Assembly: GCA_964016885.1 (NCBI GenBank)
Contig: OZ024742.1
Coordinates: 247,442,001 to 247,506,000 of the forward strand
Length of the DNA stretch: 64,000 bases
Source of the DNA: Eledone cirrhosa
Lineage: Eukaryota
Reading direction: 5' to 3'
Part shown: piece by piece, positions 2,916 to 57,359 of the stretch
Layout of the letters: each line of letters starts with the position of its first letter
Numbering within the stretch: position 1 is the first letter of the stretch
Notes under the pieces: model-generated
The model's database searches: none
Told to the model about the DNA's origin: nothing
The model's input: only the letters and a program-made list of their open reading frames with translations
Program-made: the position numbers and the translations under genes

Positions 2916-4872
2916 TACTACTTGTACATGTACTTGTGTCGACATTCACCCTGGACGGGTTGAGTCGGCTTCTTCCTTTGTCCTGACGGCATCCCGAACC
3001 ATGGCAGCCCACGCACGATGGTCTCGGGCTAATCACTGGAGATAGCGAGCCAGTCAAGGTTCCATCGGCGAATGCCGACCACCTACGGACCTGAGAGTTC
3101 GGAGAGCTCCTCCTTGATCGTCGTTGCCCAGGTCTTCAGCTGCCCACGAACGCGCTTGCGCCAGTTAGGGAGTGGAGGTGGGAGGAGAACATCGTGGATC
3201 AGCTCACACTCTGGGCGCCGGGCTGCGTAACCAAACCATCTCAAGCGCCATTGCAGCAGTACTGAAGGAAGTGGTCGAAGATTCAGGCGAAGACGAGGAC
3301 TGGTGGTAGGTACCCTATCAACGCGTGGGCAGCGAAGAATGCAGCGGAGACAGTCATTGTCGAAGACCTTCAGCCCCCGTTGATTGACTACCCCCATAGG
3401 CCATGTTTCAAAGCCCTCCAAGAGGATAGTGCGAACAACGGCCTGGTAGATTCGCCCTTTGGTCGCCGAAGTGATCTCTCTTCTGTCCCACAGACACCGC
3501 TGGAGGCGCCCTAATGTGGATCTGGCAGCACCTAGGCGACGATTGAGCTCGGCTGCGCCCTGTCCCGTTGGCAGCACTGTTGTGCCCAGGTAAACGAAGA
3601 ACTCCACATCCTCCAGGTCTACGCCCTCGAGAGATATTGGCTGCATCAGGCGAGACCAGTGACGTCATGACTTTCGACTTGGCGGCATTGATTCGTAGAC
3701 CAACAGCGGCGCCTGCAGTGTGCACCCTTTCGAGAGCACCTTGTACATCTGTCCGGTTAGCGCCCATCATCACGATGTCATCCTCGTAAGGCCAGGTCCG
3801 TCCCACGACCCCTCTCCCGACCTATACGTCCAGGTAATCCCGGAGCGCTGTGTTGAGAGTGTAGTCAATGGCGTAGTTAAAGAGAGTTGGCGATAGGGCA
3901 CCGGTCCCAACATCGAACGACTTCGTCTCCCCACCATAGACCATCACTCGAGCCCGTGTCGACCGTTAGTAGCCTTCTATATGACGAAGCAGCTTCACTG
4001 GGATGCCGTCCGCCTGCATTATACGCCAGGAGGCATCCCGATCTACCGAGTCGAAGGCAGCTGCAAAGTCGATGAAGCAGAGGACGGTAGGCTGTTGATA
4101 TGCCCACCGTTGTTCCAGGACACGCCGGAGTTTGAAGATTTGATCAACGCACCCCTTCCCCGGACAGAAGCCGCCCTGATAAGGACGGGTACGGACATCA
4201 CGGATGTTCTGGAACCTCTTCAGCAGAATAATTGCGAAGGTTTTGGCAGCAACGTCAATTAGTTGGAACACAGTTTCTCATCGCCTTTTTTGAAGAAGGG
4301 TAGGAGAGTTGCCTCGCACCAGTCACCAGGGAACCGCTCCGTTGCCCACACCGAGGAGAAGACTCGATGGAGCCAAGCTGCGAAGACATCAGGCTCGGCC
4401 TTGTAGACCTCAGCTGGAACGCCATCTTCGCACGGCGTCTTATTATTCCGGAGATGTGTCAGGACACTACGTACCTCCTCGATCGTTGGAGGGGCAGTGC
4501 TGCACCCGTATTCTTTTCCGGAAGGCTGCACGTAGGTTGGCATGGGTGGTGGCGGGTGGTTGTGCATCTCAGAGAAATGGTCCCGCCATCAGACTAGCCG
4601 GTTATTAAGATTGGTAATGACCGCCTCGTTCCGATTACGGATCGTCTCGCTGATACCGGTACTGCTTCGGCTGCCGGCTTCACCAGCTGGTAGAGCTTGC
4701 GCGAGTCACCACAGGTTTCTGCCCTCTCCGTCTGCTCCACAAATTCGCGCCAGTGTGCATTCCGATCGGCCCGATTAGCCTGAGATGTGCGACGTCGGAG
4801 ATCTCGAAGATTGGGTGCACCCTCGAGTCGGGCCACCCTCGCCCTCTCCACGAGTTCAAGAATGCCGGTCAT
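2916..4872 (-). mobile_element. RTE-clade LINE, 5'-truncated and decayed (reverse transcriptase pseudogene)
   Basis: Motifs PPTIEEV..LRNNKTPCEDGVPAE, LLPFFKKGD..CSN, QGGFCPGKGCVDQIF.LRRVLEQ, FIDFAAAFDSVDR, YEDDI (YADD variant), GLRINAAKSKVM, FVYLG, RLRWFGYAARR, GQLKTW. The 3' tail CAAGTACATGTACAAGTA is a short-repeat tail typical of RTE. Confidence 0.93.
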
Positions 4873-5173
4873 TGGTTGATAGAAAAGGGAATTGTTAAGT
4901 TTCTCTTAAGCTAACAATGCCTATATTTCAGGTGTCTATAAGATCGTTGGGGGTCAGTCATGGTTGATAGATTTAAAGAAAAGGGAAATTCTTTAAAAGC
5001 TAATTCTTTAAGGTTCTACTTAGTGACAAAGGCCTTGACAATTCTATAGACCAGTTCAAAATATTGAGTGCATATCATACCATTATCTTCAAATTTCTCT
5101 TAAACTATATTCCAAAAGTCAACAGACACATTCACAAACACACACATTCACACACACACTCGCGCGTACCCAC

Positions 5174-5207
<34 letters not shown>

Positions 5208-5243
5208 GTACACACACATATATATATACATATACACACACAT

Positions 5244-5284
<41 letters not shown>

Positions 5285-6030
5285 CACGAATACATATATA
5301 TACATATACACACATATACATATATATACATACATATATATATATATATAGATACACACATATACATACATATATACATATATATACATGTTTACACATA
5401 TATATATATATACACACATATATATATATATACTTATATATACACACATATACACACACATATATATATACACATATACACATATATATACACACATATA
5501 CATATATATACACACACATATATATAAATATATATATACATATATACACACATATAGACACACACATATATACATATATATACATACACACATATACACA
5601 TACACACATATATATATATATATGGTGGCTGCCAACTCGTTTTCGAGTACGACCACTACTTCATATCCATGTAGGAGAACCCTTACCGATGCGCTGAACG
5701 AGTGTGACTTTTTAGTCCAGCCAGCGACTTGAAAACTCTGGTACAAACACTACACTTGTGACAATTATTGACACATAGTGCTGGGCCCATGGTACCATGT
5801 GACGACAAGTGCAGAGAGATCTCCAGATATAAAGCAATGCCTGTGCCGTGAAGCTTTTATAGTGAGCAAAGGCACTGCACAAAGCCAGTCCCACTCTCTT
5901 AACCAAGATGATATTTACCAAAAAGAAAAATAAGTCAACATCATTGGATACCATCAGGGTTGCAGGTGTTATATCAGAGTTTTCCTTCTCCTAGAATTCT
6001 GCCTTGACAAAGGCTAAGGTTCATCTTTCC

Positions 6031-6084
<54 letters not shown>

Positions 6085-6108
6085 TACACATACATACATA
6101 CACACATA

Positions 6109-6506
6109 CCTTTGTCACTAAGTAGAACCTTAAAGAATTAGCTTTTAAAGAATTTCCCTTTTTTTTAATCCATCAACCATGAGTAACCCCCAAAGATCTT
6201 ATAGACACCTGAAATATAGCCATTGTTAGCTTAAGAGAAACTTAAAAATAAGGAGTGGCACCCCATTCTGAACATGTTTATAGAATTCTGTATGCCTTTG
6301 TTACTCTAAATATAAATTATAGCTTTAAAGAATTTTTAATGAATTTCATTTTCTATCAACCAATGACCTCTACTCATCCCACTCCCTACCCTCTCCTACC
6401 ACCTGAAGAGACCTATAAATACCATATTTATTTTTTGATACCCAGATTCCTGATGATTTCTAAAGAATGAAACAGTTCTAGTCCTGTAGAATCTCATCTA
6501 TATTAA

Positions 6507-6510
<4 letters not shown>
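6109..6510 (+). mobile_element. Penelope-like pseudo-LTR fragment with hammerhead; inverted partner at 4868-5032
   Basis: 6109-6245 is the reverse complement of ~4895-5032, and 6349-6367 of ~4868-4886. It ends in a hammerhead fold followed by (TA)n. Confidence 0.6.
6444..6494 (+). ncRNA. type I hammerhead ribozyme fold
   Basis: AGATTC-CTGATGA-tTTCTaaAGAAt-GAAA-CAG-ttctagtc-CTG-TA-GAATCT: 6-bp stem I, intact core, stem III and a GUA cleavage triplet. The base of stem II has a T.T mismatch. Confidence 0.75.
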
Positions 6511-10318: not shown

Positions 10319-10667
10319 TATATATATATATATGTGTGTGTGTGTGTGCGTGCATGCGTGTATGCCTATATATGATATTTACATCACACATATATTCATA
10401 CTTTCTATTTATCAATACCTTTGATGTTGTCATCATCATGATCGTCATCAGCATAAGCATCATAATCATCTCCGATCATGGCTATATTAGCTTCGATTTA
10501 AATGTAAGTGAAAGGTCAGCCAATTAGAGAAGCCTAGCTGTGTGACGTCATCCATTACATTGCACTAAATGACCGCTAAAACACTTCATTACACCAGCTA
10601 AAGTCTTAGTGTTAAAACATTTGCCTTAATATTAGTTCAAACAATTTTTTGTTCTTGTTATTTTCTC

Positions 10668-13600
10668 TGTTGTAGTGGTAGTAGATGGTGTGTCGTTGTT
10701 GTATGTGATGTAGTTGTAGTGGTAGTAGATGGTGTGTCGTTGTTGTATGTGATGTAGTTGTAGTGGTAGTAGATGGTGTGTCGTTGTTGTATGTGATGTA
10801 GTTGTAGTGGTAGTAGTTGGTGTGTCGTTGTTGTATGTGATGTAGTTGTAGTGGTAGTAGATGGTGTGTCGTTGTTGTATGTGATGTAGTTGTAGTGGTA
10901 GTAGATGGTGTGTCGTTGTTGTATGTGATGTAGTTGTAGTGGTAGTAGATGGTGTGTCGTTGTTGTATGTGATGTAGTTGTAGTGGTAGTAGATGGTGTG
11001 TCGTTGTTGTATGTGATGTAGTTGTAGTGGTAGTAGATGGTGTGTCGTTGTTGTATGTGATGTAGTTGTAGTGGTAGTAGTTGGTGTGTCGTTGTTGTAT
11101 GTGATGTAGTTGTAGTGGTAGTAGATGGCGTTGTCGTTGTTGTATGTGATGTAGTTGTAGTGGTAGTAGTTGGAGTGTCGTTGTTGTATGTGATGTAGTT
11201 GTAGTGGTAGTAGATGGCGTTGTCGTTGTTGTATGTGTTGTAGTTGTAGTGGTAGTAGTTGGAGTGTCGTTGTTGTATGTGATGTAGTTGTAGTGGTAGT
11301 AGATGGCGTTGTCGTTGTTGTATGTGTTGTAGTTGTAGTGGTAGTAGTTGGAGTGTCGTTGTTGTATGTGATGTAGTTGTAGTGGTAGTAGATGGCGTTG
11401 TCGTTGTTGTATGTGTTGTAGTTGTAGTGGTAGTAGTTGGCGTGTCGTTGTTGTATGTGATGTAGTTGTAGTGGTAGTAGTTGGCGTGTCGTTGTTGTAT
11501 GTGTTGTAGTTGTAGTGGTAGTAGATGGCGTTGTCGTTGTTGTATGTGTTGTAGTTGTAGTGGTAGTAGTTGGCGTGTCGTTGTTGTATGTGATGTAGTT
11601 GTAGTGGTAGTAGTTGGCGTGTCGTTGTTGTATGTGATGTAGTTGTAGTGGTAGTAGATGGCGTTGTCGTTGTTGTATGTGATGTAGTTGTACTGGTAGT
11701 AGATGGCGTTGTCGTTGTTGTATGTGATGTAGTTGTAGTGGTAGTAGATGGTGTTGTCGTTGTTGTATGTGATGTAGTTGTAGTGGTAGTAGTTGGCGTT
11801 GACGTTGTTGTATGTGATGTAGTTGTAGTGGTAGTAGTTGGCGTGTTGTTGTTGTATGTGATGTAGTTGTAGTGGTAGTAGTTGGCGTGTCGTTGTTGTA
11901 TGTGATGTAGTTGTAGTGGTAGTAGTTGGCGTTGTCGTTGTTGTATGTGTTGTAGTTGTAGTGGTAGTAGTTGGCGTTGTCGTTGTTGTATGTGTTGTAG
12001 TTGTAGTGGTAGTAGATGGTGTGTCGTTGTTGTATGTAATGTAGTTGTAGTGGTGGTAGATGGCGTTGTCGTTGTTGTATGTGATGTAGTTGTAGTGGTA
12101 GTAGTTGGCGTTGTCGTTGTTGTATGTGATGTAGTTGTAGTGGTAGTAGTTGGCGTGTCGTTGTTGTATGTGATGTAGTTGTAGTGGTAGTAGTTGGCGT
12201 GTCGTTGTTGTATGTGATGTAGTTGTAGTGGTAGTAGATGGCGTTGTCGTTGTTGTATGTGATGTAGTTGTAGTGGTAGTAGATGGCGTTGTCGTTGTTG
12301 TATGTGATGTAGTTGTAGTGGTAGTAGTTGGCGTGTCGTTGTTGTATGTGATGTAGTTGTAGTGGTAGTAGTTGGCGTGTCGTTGTTGTATGTGATGTAG
12401 TTGTAGTGGTAGTAGATGGGGTGTCGTTGTTGTATGTGATGTAGTTGCAGTGGTAGTAGATGGGGTGTCGTTGTTGTATGTGATGCAGTTGTAGTGGTAG
12501 TAGATGGCGTTGTCGTTGTTGTATGTGATGTAGTTGTAGTGGTAGTAGTTGGCGTTGTAGTTGTTGTATGTGATGTAGTTGTAGTGGTAGTAGATGGCGT
12601 TGTCGTTGTTGTATGTGATGTAGTTGTAGTGGTAGTAGTTGGCGTTGTAGTTGTTGTATGTGATGAAGTTGTAGTGGTAGTAGTTGGCGTTGTCGTTGTT
12701 GTATGTGATGTAGTTGTAGTGGTAGTAGTTGGCGTGTCGTTGTTGTATGTGATGTAGTTGTAGTGGTAGTAGTTGGCGTGTCGTTGTTGTATGTGATGTA
12801 GTTGTAGTGGTAGTAGTTGGCGTGTCGTTGTTGTATGTGATGTAGTTGTAGTGGTAGTAGTTGGCGTTGTCGTTGTTGTATGTGATGTAGTTGTAGTGGT
12901 AGTAGATGGCGTTGTCGTTGTTGTATGTGATGTAGTTGTAGTGGTAGTAGATGGCGTGTCGTTGTTGTATGTGATGTAGTTGTAGTGGTAGTAGATGGCG
13001 TTGTCGTTGTTGTATGTGATGTAGTTGTAGTGGTAGTAGTTGGCGTGTCGTTGTTGTATGTGATGTAGTTGTAGTGGTAGTAGTTGGCGTTGTCGTTGTT
13101 GTATGTGATGTAGTTGTAGTGGTAGTAGTTGGCGTGTCGTTGTTGTATGTGATGTAGTTGTAGTGGTAGTAGATGGCGCTGGTGTTATTGTATGTGATGT
13201 AGTTGTAGTGGTAGTAGTTGGCGTTGTCGTTGTTGTATGTGATGTAGTTGTAGTGGTAGTAGTTGGCGTTGTCGTTGTTGTATGTGTTTTAGTTGTAGTG
13301 GTAGTAGTTGGCGTTGTCGTTATTGTATGTGTTGTAGTTGTAGTGGTAGTAGATGACGTTGATGTGATTGTATATGTTGTAGTTGCAGTCGTAGTAGATG
13401 GCGCTTGTGTTATTGTATGTGATGTAGTTGTAGTGGTAGTAGTTGGCGTTGTCCTTGTTGTATGTGATGTAGTTGTAGTGGTAGTAGATGGCGCTTGTGT
13501 TATTGTATGTGTTGTAGTTGTAGTGGTAGTAGATGGCGCTTGTGTTATTGTATGTGTTGTAGTTGTAGTGGTAGTAGATGGCGCTTGTGTTATTTTATGT

Positions 13601-14960
13601 GTTGTAGTTGTAGTGGTAGTAGATGGCGCTTGTGTTATTGTATGTGTTGTAGTTGTTGTGGTAGTAGATGGCGATGGTGTGGTCATATGTGTTGTAGTTT
13701 TAGTGGTAGTAGATGGCGCTTGTGTTAGTATGTGTTGTAGTTGTAGTGGTAGTAGATGGCGCTGCTTTAGTTGTATGTGTTGTAGTGGTAGTAGATGGCG
13801 CTGGTATTATTGTATATGTTGTAGTTTTAGTGGTAGTAGATGGCGCCGGTGTTATTGTATGTGTTGTAGCTGTAGTGGTAGTAGATAAGATTGTCGTTGT
13901 TGTATGTGTTGTTGTAGTTGTAGTGGTAGTAGATGGCGTTGGTGTGGTTGTATGTGTTGTAGTAGTTGTAGTGGTATTAGATGCCGTTCGTGTTATTGTA
14001 TGTGTTATAGTTGTAATGGTAGTAGATGGCTCTGGTGTTAATGTATTTGTTGTAGTTGTAGTGGTAGTATATGGCGCTGGGATTATTATATATGTTGTAG
14101 TTGTAGTGGTAGTAGATGGCGCTGGTGTTATTCTATGTGTTGTAGCTGCAGTGGTAGTAGATAATGCTGGTGTTATTGTATGTGTTGTAGTTGTAGTGGT
14201 AGTAGATAGCGCCGGTGTGGTTGTATGTGCTGTAGTTATAATGGTAGTAGGTGGCACTGGGATTATAACATGTGCTGTTGCTGTAGTTTGTCGTTGTTGT
14301 ATGTGTTGCTGCTGTAGTGGTAGTAGATGGCGCTGGTGTTATTGTATGTGTAGTTGCTGCAGTAGTAGTAGATGGCGCTGATGTTATTGTATGTGTTGTT
14401 GCTGTAGTAGTAGTAGATAGCGCTGGTGTGGTTGTAGATAGCACTTGTGTTCTCATATATGATGTGTTGTTGGTAGTAGATGGCGCTGCTGCTGTTGGTG
14501 TAGATGGCGCTGGTCTTGTTGTATGCGTTGTTGTTGTAATAATTGCAGATGGCGCTGGTTTGTTGTATGCACTTTTGTAGATGGCACTGGTGTTGTATGT
14601 GCTTTTTGTGGTAGAAGGCGCTGGTTTTGTTGTATGCGCTCTTGTAATAGTTGTAGATGTCGCTGATGATCTTGTGGGGTTGTTGTTGTTGTTGTAGTAG
14701 AAGAGCTGGTGTTGTAGTAGATAAACTGGTGTTGTGTCAGTTGTTGCTAATGTTGTAGTAGACGGTGCTCGTGTTGTATTGCATGTTGTTGTTGTTGGTG
14801 TTGATATTGTTACTGTTACGGCTGTTATTGTTGTTGTGGTTGCAGATGTTGTAGCAGTGTTGATGTTAACGGTGGGAGTCATGCTGTATTTGCTGTTGTT
14901 GCTGATCGTGATTTGTAGCAGATGGTGGTGTTGGTGATGGCGGCAGTGTGTTTGTTGCTT
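10668..14960 (-). repeat. 44/45-bp minisatellite with mucin-like (Thr-rich) coding potential
   Basis: Plus-strand unit GTTGTAGTGGTAGTAGATGGCGTTGTCGTTGTTGTATGTGATGTA (45 bp, minus frame TTTTTTSHTTTTTPS) is interspersed with a 44-bp variant. Homogeneous at 10668-13160 and progressively degenerate to ~14960. Confidence 0.92.
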
Positions 14961-33564: not shown

Positions 33565-33607
<43 letters not shown>

Positions 33608-33608
<1 letters not shown>

Positions 33609-33800
33609 TAGGAACCAGTAAGACCCCGACAGCTGAGCTCAAGCCGTTTCGACGGCTAATTCTGGACTAAATTTAGTCCAGAATTAGCCGTCGAAACGGC
33701 TTGAGCTCAGCTGTCGGGGTCTTACTGGTTCCTATTACCCACTCTACTACCTCAAGTGCGTTATGATCCACCTGGTTCCTTACCACATTTCCTTCGTTAT
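33608..33800 (+). mobile_element. hairpin-plus-tail element (family H1) with a perfect 128-bp palindrome
   Basis: 33608-33735 is a spacer-less perfect palindrome centred on CTAAA|TTTAG, followed by a unique tail and (TA)n. Six more copies occur in the window. Confidence 0.85.
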
Positions 33801-34082: not shown

Positions 34083-34283
34083 AAAGGAATTCTGGTAAGG
34101 AACCAGATGGACCATAAAGCACCAGAGTACTCAATACTTAGGGTAGTAGAGTGGGAAATAGGAAAAAGTATGACCCCGATGGCAGAGTTCAAGCCGTTTC
34201 GATGGCTATTTCTGGACTGTAATAGTCCAGAAATAGCCGTTGAAACGGCTTGAGCTCTGCCGTCGGGGTCATATTTTTTCCTG
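34083..34283 (-). mobile_element. family H1 element
   Basis: Tail 34083-34159 and hairpin 34160-34282. Confidence 0.85.
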
Positions 34284-34489
34284 TACATCTACATGTGTAT
34301 ATACACCGAACGTGAGTTAATGTTCATTGCACTGTAATGGGTTCCCGTGAATAAGGGTGGGAAAGTCAGACGAATTGTAGGGGTTAAAGTTGGGAGGATA
34401 GCTCGGGAAGTTGTCGAATTAGCACCGATGTACCAGGGAAGGATGGCAGAGGTGGAAAAGGGGGAGGCAGATTAACTCACCTGCTTGTC

Positions 34490-39382: not shown

Positions 39383-39553
39383 ATATTTAATATAGAAATA
39401 ATTTCTACAGGACTAGAACTGTTTTATTCGGGAGAGATAACGAGAATGAAACAGTTCTAGTCCTGTAGGAGTCATATCTATATTAAATATTTATACTCTG
39501 CTAAGTATTGAGTACGTAACTTACTGTGGTTGCCCACGATTGAACCCGGGATG

Positions 39554-39557
<4 letters not shown>
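39383..39557 (+). mobile_element. hairpin-plus-tail element (family H2), fold-back form of the 6444 hammerhead
   Basis: CTACAGGACTAGAACTGTTTTATTC..GAATGAAACAGTTCTAGTCCTGTAG, then tail CTAAGTATTGAGTAC. Other fragments at 40167-40220, 40451-40510 and 43355-43422. Confidence 0.8.
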
Positions 39558-40160: not shown

Positions 40161-40238
40161 TATATTGTATTGAGTACATTAATTACTGTGGTTACCCTCG
40201 ATTGAACTCAGGATAAACTTATATATATATATATAATA

Positions 40239-40432
40239 TAGGAACGAGTAGGACCCCGAGGGCCGAGTTTAGCCGTTTCGACGGCTAATTCTAGTCCAGA
40301 AATAGCCGTCGAAACGGCTTGAGCTCAGCCGTCGGGGTCCTACTCGTTCCTATTACCGACTCTACTACCCTAAGTATTGAGTACTTTGGTGCGTTATGGT
40401 CCACCTGGTTCCTTACCCCATTTCCTTCGTTA
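40239..40432 (+). mobile_element. family H1 element
   Basis: Hairpin TAGGAACGAGTAGGACCCC...GGGGTCCTACTCGTTCCTA plus tail, flanked by TA runs. Confidence 0.85.
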
Positions 40433-40504
40433 TATATAATATATATATATATTCGTGATTATTTCTCCCGAATGAAACAGTTTTAGTCCTGTAGAAGCCT
40501 TCTG

Positions 40505-40596
<92 letters not shown>

Positions 40597-42444: not shown

Positions 42445-43424
42445 TACGTATAACTGCCTTTATTGATATATATTATCAAACACTCATTTGTTTGTGACCG
42501 TGTACAGACTAACAATATTTTCCTTTATTTTTTCATTTTTTCTTTTTTCTTTTCTTTTATACATATTCTTCCAACCGTTGTCCTTCTCTATTCAAAACTT
42601 TTTCAACTTTACTTTTTGTATTCCCTTATCTCTGTCTGTTTGGCTCTCTGTTTCTCAACTGTAAGAAGTACTTGGTACTTCCCTTAGTCTGCCATAGCTT
42701 ACTAGCTCTATGGGACGTTTAATAGGCTTAAATAAATAAATGAATAAATAAATAGATACCCTTGTTTTTTCATGTCTTTACACGACGTGGGTGTTAACCC
42801 AGGTAATATTTATTAATTCTGTTTCTTTCTTGTTACAGGTATGTATTGTTTATTTTCTCAATCAGTGTTAAGTTTTATTCATTTATTCTATCAGTGCGTA
42901 GTGATCAGCATCCCTACATGTAATCGCGTTAAACTGCAATGATAACCAAACATGGGTAGTTAATTTTTTTCTTACTCATGGTTTCTGTCAGTGTTAATAT
43001 TACTCTGCAATTCCCTTTGTTTTCCTTTTTCTACATTTCCATCACTTTTGCTGCCGATATGCGCCTTATTTTAACGTTGTCTTTTTTCGTTAACAGTTTT
43101 TGACCCCTTTTGACCCATTACAGACACACGCACATACACGCATACTCATACAAACATACGTACATTCATATATACATGAACACAAACATACACACATATT
43201 TACACATACATGCATACATTCATACATACATCCATACATGCATACATACAAACATATTATTATGAGTGAATTCCTGTTGGGTATCAGGAGGTGACCACAG
43301 TTAATGAAGGTAATCAATAGGTTAGTAACTTATAGGCATTTTTATTTTAAATGGAAATGACTTATACAGGACCTCTTCATGATTTCATAACCATGCAACA
43401 GTTCTACTCCTGTAGAAGTCATAT

Positions 43425-57074: not shown

Positions 57075-57280
57075 TGAAAGGGATGTGGTAAGGAACCAGA
57101 TGGACCATAAGGCACCAGAGAACTCAATACTTAGGGTAGTAGAGTGGGTAATAGGAAAATGCTTGACCCCGACGGCAGAGCTCAAGCCGTTTCGATGGCT
57201 ATTTCCGGACAAAATTCATTTTAAAAAATAGCCGTCGAAACGACTTGAGCTCTGCCGTCGAGGTGAAGCATTTTCCTATA
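57075..57280 (-). mobile_element. family H1 element; truncated copies at 58220-58324 (minus) and 44578-44690 (plus)
   Basis: Tail GGTAAGGAACCAGATGGACCATAA..CTCAATACTTAGGGTAGTAGAGTGGG and hairpin 57151-57279, flanked by TA runs. Confidence 0.85.
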
Positions 57281-57359
57281 TATATATATGCTCTACGGTT
57301 CTTATATATTTGTCCTTATCGAGCCCTCTTTGGATTTTAGTCTTCAAATTTATTATTAT

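What the first reader, a model, noticed from the sequence alone, without database searches (positions are those of the whole stretch)
6444..6494. Intact parent hammerhead whose sister copies are fold-backs turning in stem II
A complete type I fold is readable here (stem I AGATTC/GAATCT, CUGAUGA, GAAA, CAG/CTG, GUA). The same 3' half GAATGAAACAGTTCTAGTCCTGTAG occurs at 39444-39468, but its CUGAUGA half is replaced by the reverse complement of the 3' half, with the turn in the stem II loop. The 40451 copy starts exactly at stem II (ATTCG...CGAAT GAAAC). This is the within-window control linking the hairpin elements to hammerheads.
Basis: partly seen in the sequence, partly recalled or inferred. 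Interest (0 to 1): 0.72.

Follow-up and report, generated by a model that had tools for sequence, protein, structure and literature searches.

The report
Penelope stubs end at RNA cap
The hammerhead-ribozyme motif is real and sits at the front of a very abundant Penelope-type jumping gene, but most of its mirror-image sister copies keep the whole motif and turn just upstream of it, at what is likely the capped start of the element's RNA, not in stem II, which points to a likely two-copy way of inserting.

Summary
The motif at 6444-6494 is there as described, with a weak stem II (U·U plus 3 pairs) and no Rfam hit. It is the hammerhead in the pseudo-LTR of a Hydra-clade-like Penelope element: 28,397 exact 3'-half copies, intact 713-aa ORFs starting 175 nt downstream. 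The stem II reading fails. About 320 fold-backs turn in or near loop II, 3,940 keep CUGAUGA on both arms and turn at the 5' strand of stem I, and 21 + 47 turn at the predicted cut. That point lies 30-31 nt below TATAAATA and is often preceded by a non-native G (76 of 100 listed), the known mark of a copied cap. The 40451 copy is a mutated whole motif, not a stem II start. One arm carries the ~67-nt tail (41 of 49 loci, never both), and the tail-less arm often reaches further 5' (10 of 21), which one snap-back cannot give. Best model (inferred): both cut target strands prime on uncleaved RNA, run off the cap and are joined head to head. No RNA data were available. The scan noted this same reading before, in this genome and others.

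The parts
6108..6509 (+). Pseudo-LTR piece of the Penelope-like element (upstream promoter region, hammerhead, short 3' end running into (TA)n at 6510)
   Evidence: 82% identical over 426 columns to the region upstream of the intact ORF in L176; 3' end
6414..6421 (+). TATAAATA box, first T 30 nt before the A of AGATTC; a CCAAT-containing word lies at 6358-6366
   Evidence: sequence; promoter function inferred
6444..6445 (+). Predicted transcription start (A or G at the 5' end of stem I); the position where genomic stubs begin
   Evidence: 2,284 copies begin at the A, 2,549 at the G, 1,086 one base further in; not shown on RNA
6444..6494 (+). Type I hammerhead motif: stem I 6 bp, CUGAUGA, stem II U·U + 3 bp, GAAA, stem III 4 bp with CUAG palindrome in the loop, predicted cut after 6488
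   Evidence: cleavage untested
4863..5623 (-). Inverted arm of the same element's upstream region facing the 6108 arm; cut off before the TATA box and hammerhead
   Evidence: blastn
39386..39557 (.). Head-to-head stub in (TA)n: short arm on the minus strand (ends about +58 from C3), 14-nt spacer 39430-39443, long arm with tail (ends about +128); a minority type that lost CUGA
40449..40511 (+). Single stub of the GAAGCC/TCCC subfamily with a mutated core box (GTGATTA), starting in (TA)n close to the predicted start
43379..43417 (+). Decayed copy of the motif
33583..33735 (.). Family 2 head-to-head stub (second Penelope-like family), perfect 64-bp arms at 33608-33735
34158..34306 (.). Family 2 head-to-head stub
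40220..40353 (.). Family 2 head-to-head stub
57151..57289 (.). Family 2 head-to-head stub

Best explanation
The motif is the hammerhead in the pseudo-LTR of an abundant Penelope-like retrotransposon, and its mirror-image sister copies are likely made when both cut strands of a (TA)n target prime copying of uncleaved element RNA, both copies likely run off the RNA's predicted capped start at the foot of stem I, and the two ends are likely joined head to head. Shown: family, ORF, copy numbers, junction positions, extra G, one long and one short arm, same subfamily in both arms. Inferred: that the junction is the transcription start, that the G is a copied cap, that the two outer ends (about +48 to +65 and +127/128 from C3) are two internal reverse-transcription starts as in the anole element PAc, and that two cDNAs, probably from one RNA or one source locus, are joined by short pairing or end joining. 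The 6444 copy itself carries the promoter, so it would come from a read-through transcript; it is a sister, not the parent.
For: ORF link: 19 of 20 fetched long-ORF loci give 713-714 aa from the ATG, 175 nt after C3. Junction counts: about 320 loci with spacer <=14, 3,940 with CUGAUGA on both arms, 21 symmetric and 47 one-sided at the predicted cut (GAATCT subfamily only). In 22 GAATCT-subfamily loci 28 of 44 arms end at the G or A of AGATTC and none runs more than 7 nt upstream of C3 though the pattern allowed 16. Base before AGATT where it is not the native C: G in 76 of the first 100 listed (counted by eye) and 32 of 42 fetched non-native copies. L260 and L268 carry the extra base on both arms, one letter apart; L219 has G directly between (TA)n and AGATT. 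Tail on one arm only in 41 of 49 loci, both arms 0, neither 8; the tail-less arm reaches further 5' in 10 of 21, the tailed arm in 7, equal in 4. Family 2: 27 of 30 copies lose the native upstream sequence within 6 nt of one point, 31 nt below TATTTAT, with G before the A in 4 of 7 that start there. PAc cuts and extends both strands, starts at two internal sites that bound the tail, and uses unprocessed RNA (PMC11167929). Untemplated G is attributed to cap copying for L1/SVA (PMC3287187).
Against: No RNA 5' end was measured. Many of the G's can also be read as templated by the partner arm (for example L226, L229, L233, L243, L250, L263). Where copies start at the G of GATTCC, T precedes it about as often as G (50 against 44 of 100 listed, counted by eye). 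TATA spacing is 30-31 nt in the main subfamily but shorter or longer in L012, L028 and L115, and TATTTAT in family 2 was picked after the junction was seen. Loop II agrees between arms in 40 of 49 loci (null mean 7.3, maximum 18 in 10,000 shuffles), which fits copying of one arm from the other as well as two copies of one RNA. The whole-genome patterns differ in length and subfamily range, so the ratios are approximate. The fetched samples come from the start of contig C1.
Confidence: 0.72

Rival explanations
1. One cDNA runs off the capped 5' end, snaps back on itself and copies itself to make the second arm.
For: Arms agree in loop II in 40 of 49 loci; the commonest junction (3-nt spacer) reads as CC paired to GG around a 3-nt loop. 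Self-priming was proposed for Penelope palindromes (PMC3846280).
Against: The tail-less arm reaches further 5' than the tailed arm in 10 of 21 loci; a copy cannot start beyond its template, and a short first arm cannot supply the tail. Two loci have a full end with an extra base on both arms (L260, L268).
Confidence: 0.14
2. Reverse transcriptase stops at the foot of the folded ribozyme (stem I) in a longer RNA; the match to a start site is a coincidence.
For: The junction coincides with the 5' end of stem I; no RNA end was measured; 5,155 copies run through this point into the promoter (inflated by tandem arrays).
Against: Family 2 stops at a different place in its fold but at the same distance from a TATA-like word; a structural stop does not explain the G excess; a polymerase would be expected to stall on the 3' side of a helix, not after passing it (general knowledge).
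Confidence: 0.07
3. One reading: the cDNA folds back on stem II of the hammerhead, replacing the CUGAUGA half.
For: About 320 loci have a spacer of 14 nt or less, several with just the 4-nt loop II; the window's 39404 copy is of this broad kind; family 2 turns inside its domain II.
Against: About 12 times more loci keep CUGAUGA on both arms; 88 of 96 sampled copies keep the box; the loop II class has the same long/short arm pattern in the loci where both ends could be read, so it looks like trimming to the TTC/GAA short pairing during the same join; 40451 is not a stem II start.
Confidence: 0.04
4. Palindromes arise by self-priming on an antisense template, as suggested for rotifer Penelope elements.
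For: PMC3846280 argues that head-to-head palindromes by self-priming need an antisense template (passage read).
Against: The junction follows sense-strand promoter geometry and carries a G on the sense strand; nothing seen marks an antisense 3' end there.
Confidence: 0.03

Closest known systems
Hydra clade of C-terminal EN+ Penelope-like elements (Craig et al. 2021, PMC8557442; abstract, section 11, passages and supplement passages read)
   Same: Single ORF with RT then GIY-YIG-type EN, DKT, CxCX5C linker, CxxC and CxH, hammerhead present, (TA)n targets; the ORF follows the Hydra rows of the supplementary alignment by eye
   Different: RWR for RWK; unit about 5.9 kb with a long microsatellite-like 3' region (L191) against <3 kb; its hammerhead 3' half and N-terminal word are not in the supplement (0 hits), so it is not one of the listed consensus sequences as far as those words test
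Minimal/variant hammerheads of PLE pseudo-LTRs (Cervera and de la Pena 2014, PMC4209133; parts 1-2 of 4 read)
   Same: Type I, in the pLTR, palindromic loop III predicted to favour dimers (-12.8 against -1.4 kcal/mol per monomer), dispersed single copies and close opposite-strand pairs; family 2 has the U3-A8 core variant described there
   Different: Short stem II with U10.1·U11.1 in 149 of 160 contexts (TTTC/GAAT) instead of G-C and a long helix II
Inverted 5'-truncated pLTR with optional tail (Arkhipova et al. 2013, PMC3846280, passages; Craig et al. 2021)
   Same: Head-to-head arms, tail on one end only
   Different: Here thousands of 110-190-bp stubs have the junction pinned to one or two bases with an extra G; those papers suggest self-priming or leave the mechanism open
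PAc (anole Poseidon) in vitro system (Frangieh et al. 2024, PMC11167929; parts 1-2 of 4 read)
   Same: Two 3' ends bounding a tail, AT-rich targets, use of uncleaved RNA
   Different: Tail about 67 nt and wholly in the 5' UTR here; the parts read do not treat inverted junctions or the cap

Membership tests
Type I hammerhead ribozyme | CUGANGA and GAAA boxes, NUH cut site | tested here: met
   CTGATGA, GAAA, GTA at 6450, 6469, 6486-88
Type I hammerhead ribozyme | Three helices supported by covariation | tested here: inconclusive
   Stem I: 2 of 6 pairs change on both sides (AU to GC, AU to CG), 0 of 500 shuffles reach the covariation score but 181 of 500 reach the pair count; stems II and III hardly vary, and sampling required the 3' half (15 hand-picked rows)
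Type I hammerhead ribozyme | G10.1-C11.1 (or any pair) closing stem II | tested here: not met
   U·U in 6444 and in nearly all copies
Type I hammerhead ribozyme | Match to an Rfam hammerhead model (RF00163 and relatives) | tested here: not met
   none at gathering score or at E<=10
Type I hammerhead ribozyme | Self-cleavage | not testable with these tools
   needs an assay; few junctions fall at the predicted cut (21 + 47)
EN+ Penelope-like elements | Single ORF with RT and GIY-YIG endonuclease | tested here: inconclusive
   713-aa ORF with YRDDGL and VY..TYIGMT words; Pfam GIY-YIG only E=0.13, below cut-off, no RT family hit; no PDB match; agreement with Hydra PLE rows by eye
EN+ Penelope-like elements | Tandem or partial-tandem units, inverted 5'-truncated copy, tail on one end | tested here: met
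   L191 tandem, L185/L187/L190 inverted copies before the ORF; tail on one arm 41 of 49
EN+ Penelope-like elements | Hammerhead motif in the pLTR | tested here: met
   3' half found 160 nt before the ATG in 18 of the 19 ORF loci listed
Hydra clade | RWK, DKT, CxCX5C linker, CxxC/CxH, no CCHH | tested here: met
   RWR (variant), SDKTK, CNCLNKEAC, CDLC, CMH read from the ORF
Hydra clade | Insertion into (TA)n | tested here: met
Hydra clade | Placement in an RT tree with Hydra elements | not tested
   reference proteins could be read in the supplement but were not available to the aligner
Non-LTR retrozyme | Tandem ORF-less repeats with one hammerhead per unit | tested here: not met
   the 6444 copy is dispersed; one tandem array of the family elsewhere does fit (L272)

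The most novel reading that the evidence does not exclude
Penelope-like elements build their inverted ends by priming twice near the 5' end of their own capped, uncleaved RNA, so that thousands of genomic stubs record the transcription start to the base, cap included; in this family the promoter starts the RNA exactly at stem I, and in family 2 inside the ribozyme, so promoter placement decides whether the messenger carries a whole hammerhead.
Probability: 0.6. Interest if true: 0.62.

Novelty: new member of a known kind. Interest (0 to 1): 0.45.

Why it matters
How Penelope-like elements make their tandem and inverted insertions is named as open in PMC8557442, and the role of their hammerhead is unclear. 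This family gives thousands of natural junctions that favour one route (two target-primed copies run to the cap and joined) and show that cleaved RNA is rarely the template. The prediction can be tested directly in the existing PAc in vitro system and by 5' RACE. The element and its ribozyme motif are otherwise of a known kind.

Tried and rejected
Rfam: no hammerhead hit for the window, the motif or a family 2 locus. Sequencing runs: no RNA holder listed; contigs of three coded runs cannot show RNA ends, table 6 was empty; the depth step near the predicted start in run X1 is a sum over contigs and was not used. Pfam on the broken L021 frames gave nothing; PDB search gave one unrelated weak hit. 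The repeat finder was swamped by microsatellites. One search's energy lines used a register off by one base and were redone. The partner search missed two fold-backs seen by eye (L033, loop II type; L107, stem I type) and the 32-locus count leaves out pairs more than 100 nt apart; 4 of the first 100 places were not in the 96-copy sample. MITE-like or non-retro origin was rejected because arm ends are unequal and junctions differ from locus to locus. Literature: six searches and one search found no paper placing PLE inverted junctions at the cap; the library lacks most subscription papers, and bioRxiv supplements were not seen. Of 10.64898/2026.07.22.740005 I read part 1 of 5, of PMC2377424 passages only.

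Full report
Observation. The window carries the stated motif at 6444-6494: stem I AGATTC/GAATCT, CUGAUGA, a stem II of three pairs on a U·U mismatch, GAAA, a four-pair stem III with an 8-nt loop holding the palindrome CUAG, and GUA. It is not the preferred fold of the monomer (-4.2 against -7.6 kcal/mol, probability 0.001; z 0.39), and Rfam does not detect it. The stem III strand is predicted to pair with a second copy of itself (-12.8 kcal/mol), as described for pLTR hammerheads (PMC4209133). In 15 hand-picked rows stem I has two pairs with changes on both sides; stems II and III are nearly invariant and so uninformative. Activity is untested.

What it belongs to. The 25-nt 3' half has 28,397 exact copies in the 3.0-Gb genome. 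One of the first 30 loci ran on into an ORF; a protein search returned many long open frames, and 19 of 20 such loci fetched gave 713-714 aa from the ATG, 175 nt after C3. The protein has RWR, DKT, YRDDGL, CxCX5C, a GIY-YIG-like stretch, CxxC and CxH, the features listed for the Hydra clade (PMC8557442 section 11), and follows the Hydra rows of that paper's supplement by eye. Library support is weak: Pfam GIY-YIG E=0.13 only. Tandem units and inverted copies in front of the ORF are present. The 6444 copy holds about 340 nt of upstream promoter region and ends in (TA)n 15 nt after stem I, so it is one sister among many rather than a parent.

Where fold-backs turn. Of the first 100 places, 96 were examined; 88 keep the CUGAUGA box in register, 64 exactly. 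Of 32 fold-back loci among them, 2 have a spacer of 16 nt or less, 6 of 17-29 and 24 of 30-55, the range in which both arms can reach C3. Genome-wide, about 320 loci have a spacer of 14 or less (this includes some with the box on one arm), 3,940 keep the box on both arms within 15 nt, 21 turn symmetrically around the predicted cut and 47 join a cut-site end to a full end; the last two counts cover the GAATCT subfamily only. So stem II turns are a minority and cleaved RNA is rarely the template. The window's 39404 copy is one of the minority and is asymmetric; 40451 is a whole motif with a mutated box, 9 mismatches of 51 without gaps.

What the turning point is. In the GAATCT subfamily native sequence stops at the A of AGATTC in 2,284 copies, at the G in 2,549 and at the next A in 1,086, while 5,155 continue into the promoter. 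In 22 two-armed loci 28 of 44 arms stop at that A or G and none runs more than 7 nt beyond C3. TATAAATA begins 30 nt before the A. The base before AGATT, where it is not the native C, is G in 76 of 100 listed and 32 of 42 fetched non-native copies, 4 native variants set aside. Some of these G's could come from the partner arm, but L219 has G between (TA)n and AGATT, and L260 and L268 have the extra base on both arms. An untemplated G is attributed to cap copying in L1 and SVA insertions (PMC3287187). Against this, T is about as common as G before copies that start at GATTCC, and no RNA could be examined.

Second family as a control. The other hairpins of the window (33608, 34204, 40241, 57151) belong to a second family with 12,681 exact copies of a 24-nt probe, whose promoter-bearing copy L147 follows a related EN domain and folds as a hammerhead with a U3-A8 core and long domain II. 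Of 30 copies, 27 lose native upstream sequence within 6 nt of one point inside domain II, 31 nt below TATTTAT. That box was chosen after the fact and the probe cannot see starts further downstream, but two families stopping at different places in the fold and the same distance from a TATA-like word argue for a start site and against stem II.

How the two arms are made. In 49 loci the tail word is on one arm in 41, both in 0, neither in 8; short arms end about +48 to +65 and long arms mostly at +127/128 from C3. This matches the tail and the two internal starts shown for PAc, which cuts and extends both target strands and uses unprocessed RNA (PMC11167929). The tail-less arm reaches further 5' in 10 of 21 loci, the tailed arm in 7. 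A snap-back copy cannot start beyond its template, so two cDNAs are needed at least in those loci. Loop II agrees between arms in 40 of 49 (null mean 7.3), so both come from one RNA or one source locus; this also fits the snap-back rival and keeps it alive for part of the loci. The joining step is inferred.

Relation to what is known. Hammerheads in pLTRs, inverted 5'-truncated copies and the one-sided tail are published (PMC4209133, PMC3846280, PMC8557442). PMC3846280 explains the palindromes by self-priming on an antisense template; PMC8557442 calls the mechanism open. My searches found no paper that places the junction at the cap. After I had reached this reading, the scan's notes showed the same conclusion for other windows of this genome and for other genomes; they are unchecked notes and are not counted as support.

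Verdict. Interest 0.45.

Noticed in passing
L272 (G000:C1:83679000-83684500): Tandem array of an ORF-less unit of about 1,070-1,090 bp (microsatellite-like region, promoter, hammerhead, tail) of this family; retrozyme-like. At least 12 units appear in the list.
   Followed up: partly
window 4863-5623 (-) and 6108-6509 (+): The 6444 copy faces an inverted arm of the same upstream region that is cut off before the TATA box; another repeat lies between them (5624-6035).
   Followed up: partly
L146, L147, L173: Family 2 hammerhead has the U3-A8 core variant and a long two-part domain II; its predicted RNA start lies inside the ribozyme, so only read-through RNA would hold a whole motif.
   Followed up: partly
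window 6457-6472: UUUC of stem II is complementary to the core GAAA, and the U·U at the base of stem II is nearly invariant; a possible built-in inactive fold.
   Followed up: no
L176:1860-1866 joined to 1788-1793: Contigs of run X1 show direct joints from the short 3' end back to just upstream of the predicted start (table 5c), suggesting a ~75-nt tandem unit in that organism.
   Followed up: no
L001, L006-L008, L014, L022, L078, L108: A near-identical stub sits inside a larger repeated sequence, so it was amplified as a passenger; such copies inflate counts.
   Followed up: no
window 9596 (-) and 44333 (+): Two related CTGAGGAG...GAAAG motifs that look like a third hammerhead-bearing family.
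   Followed up: no
window 10600-14900: Long 44-45-bp tandem array with threonine- or valine-rich open frames.
   Followed up: no
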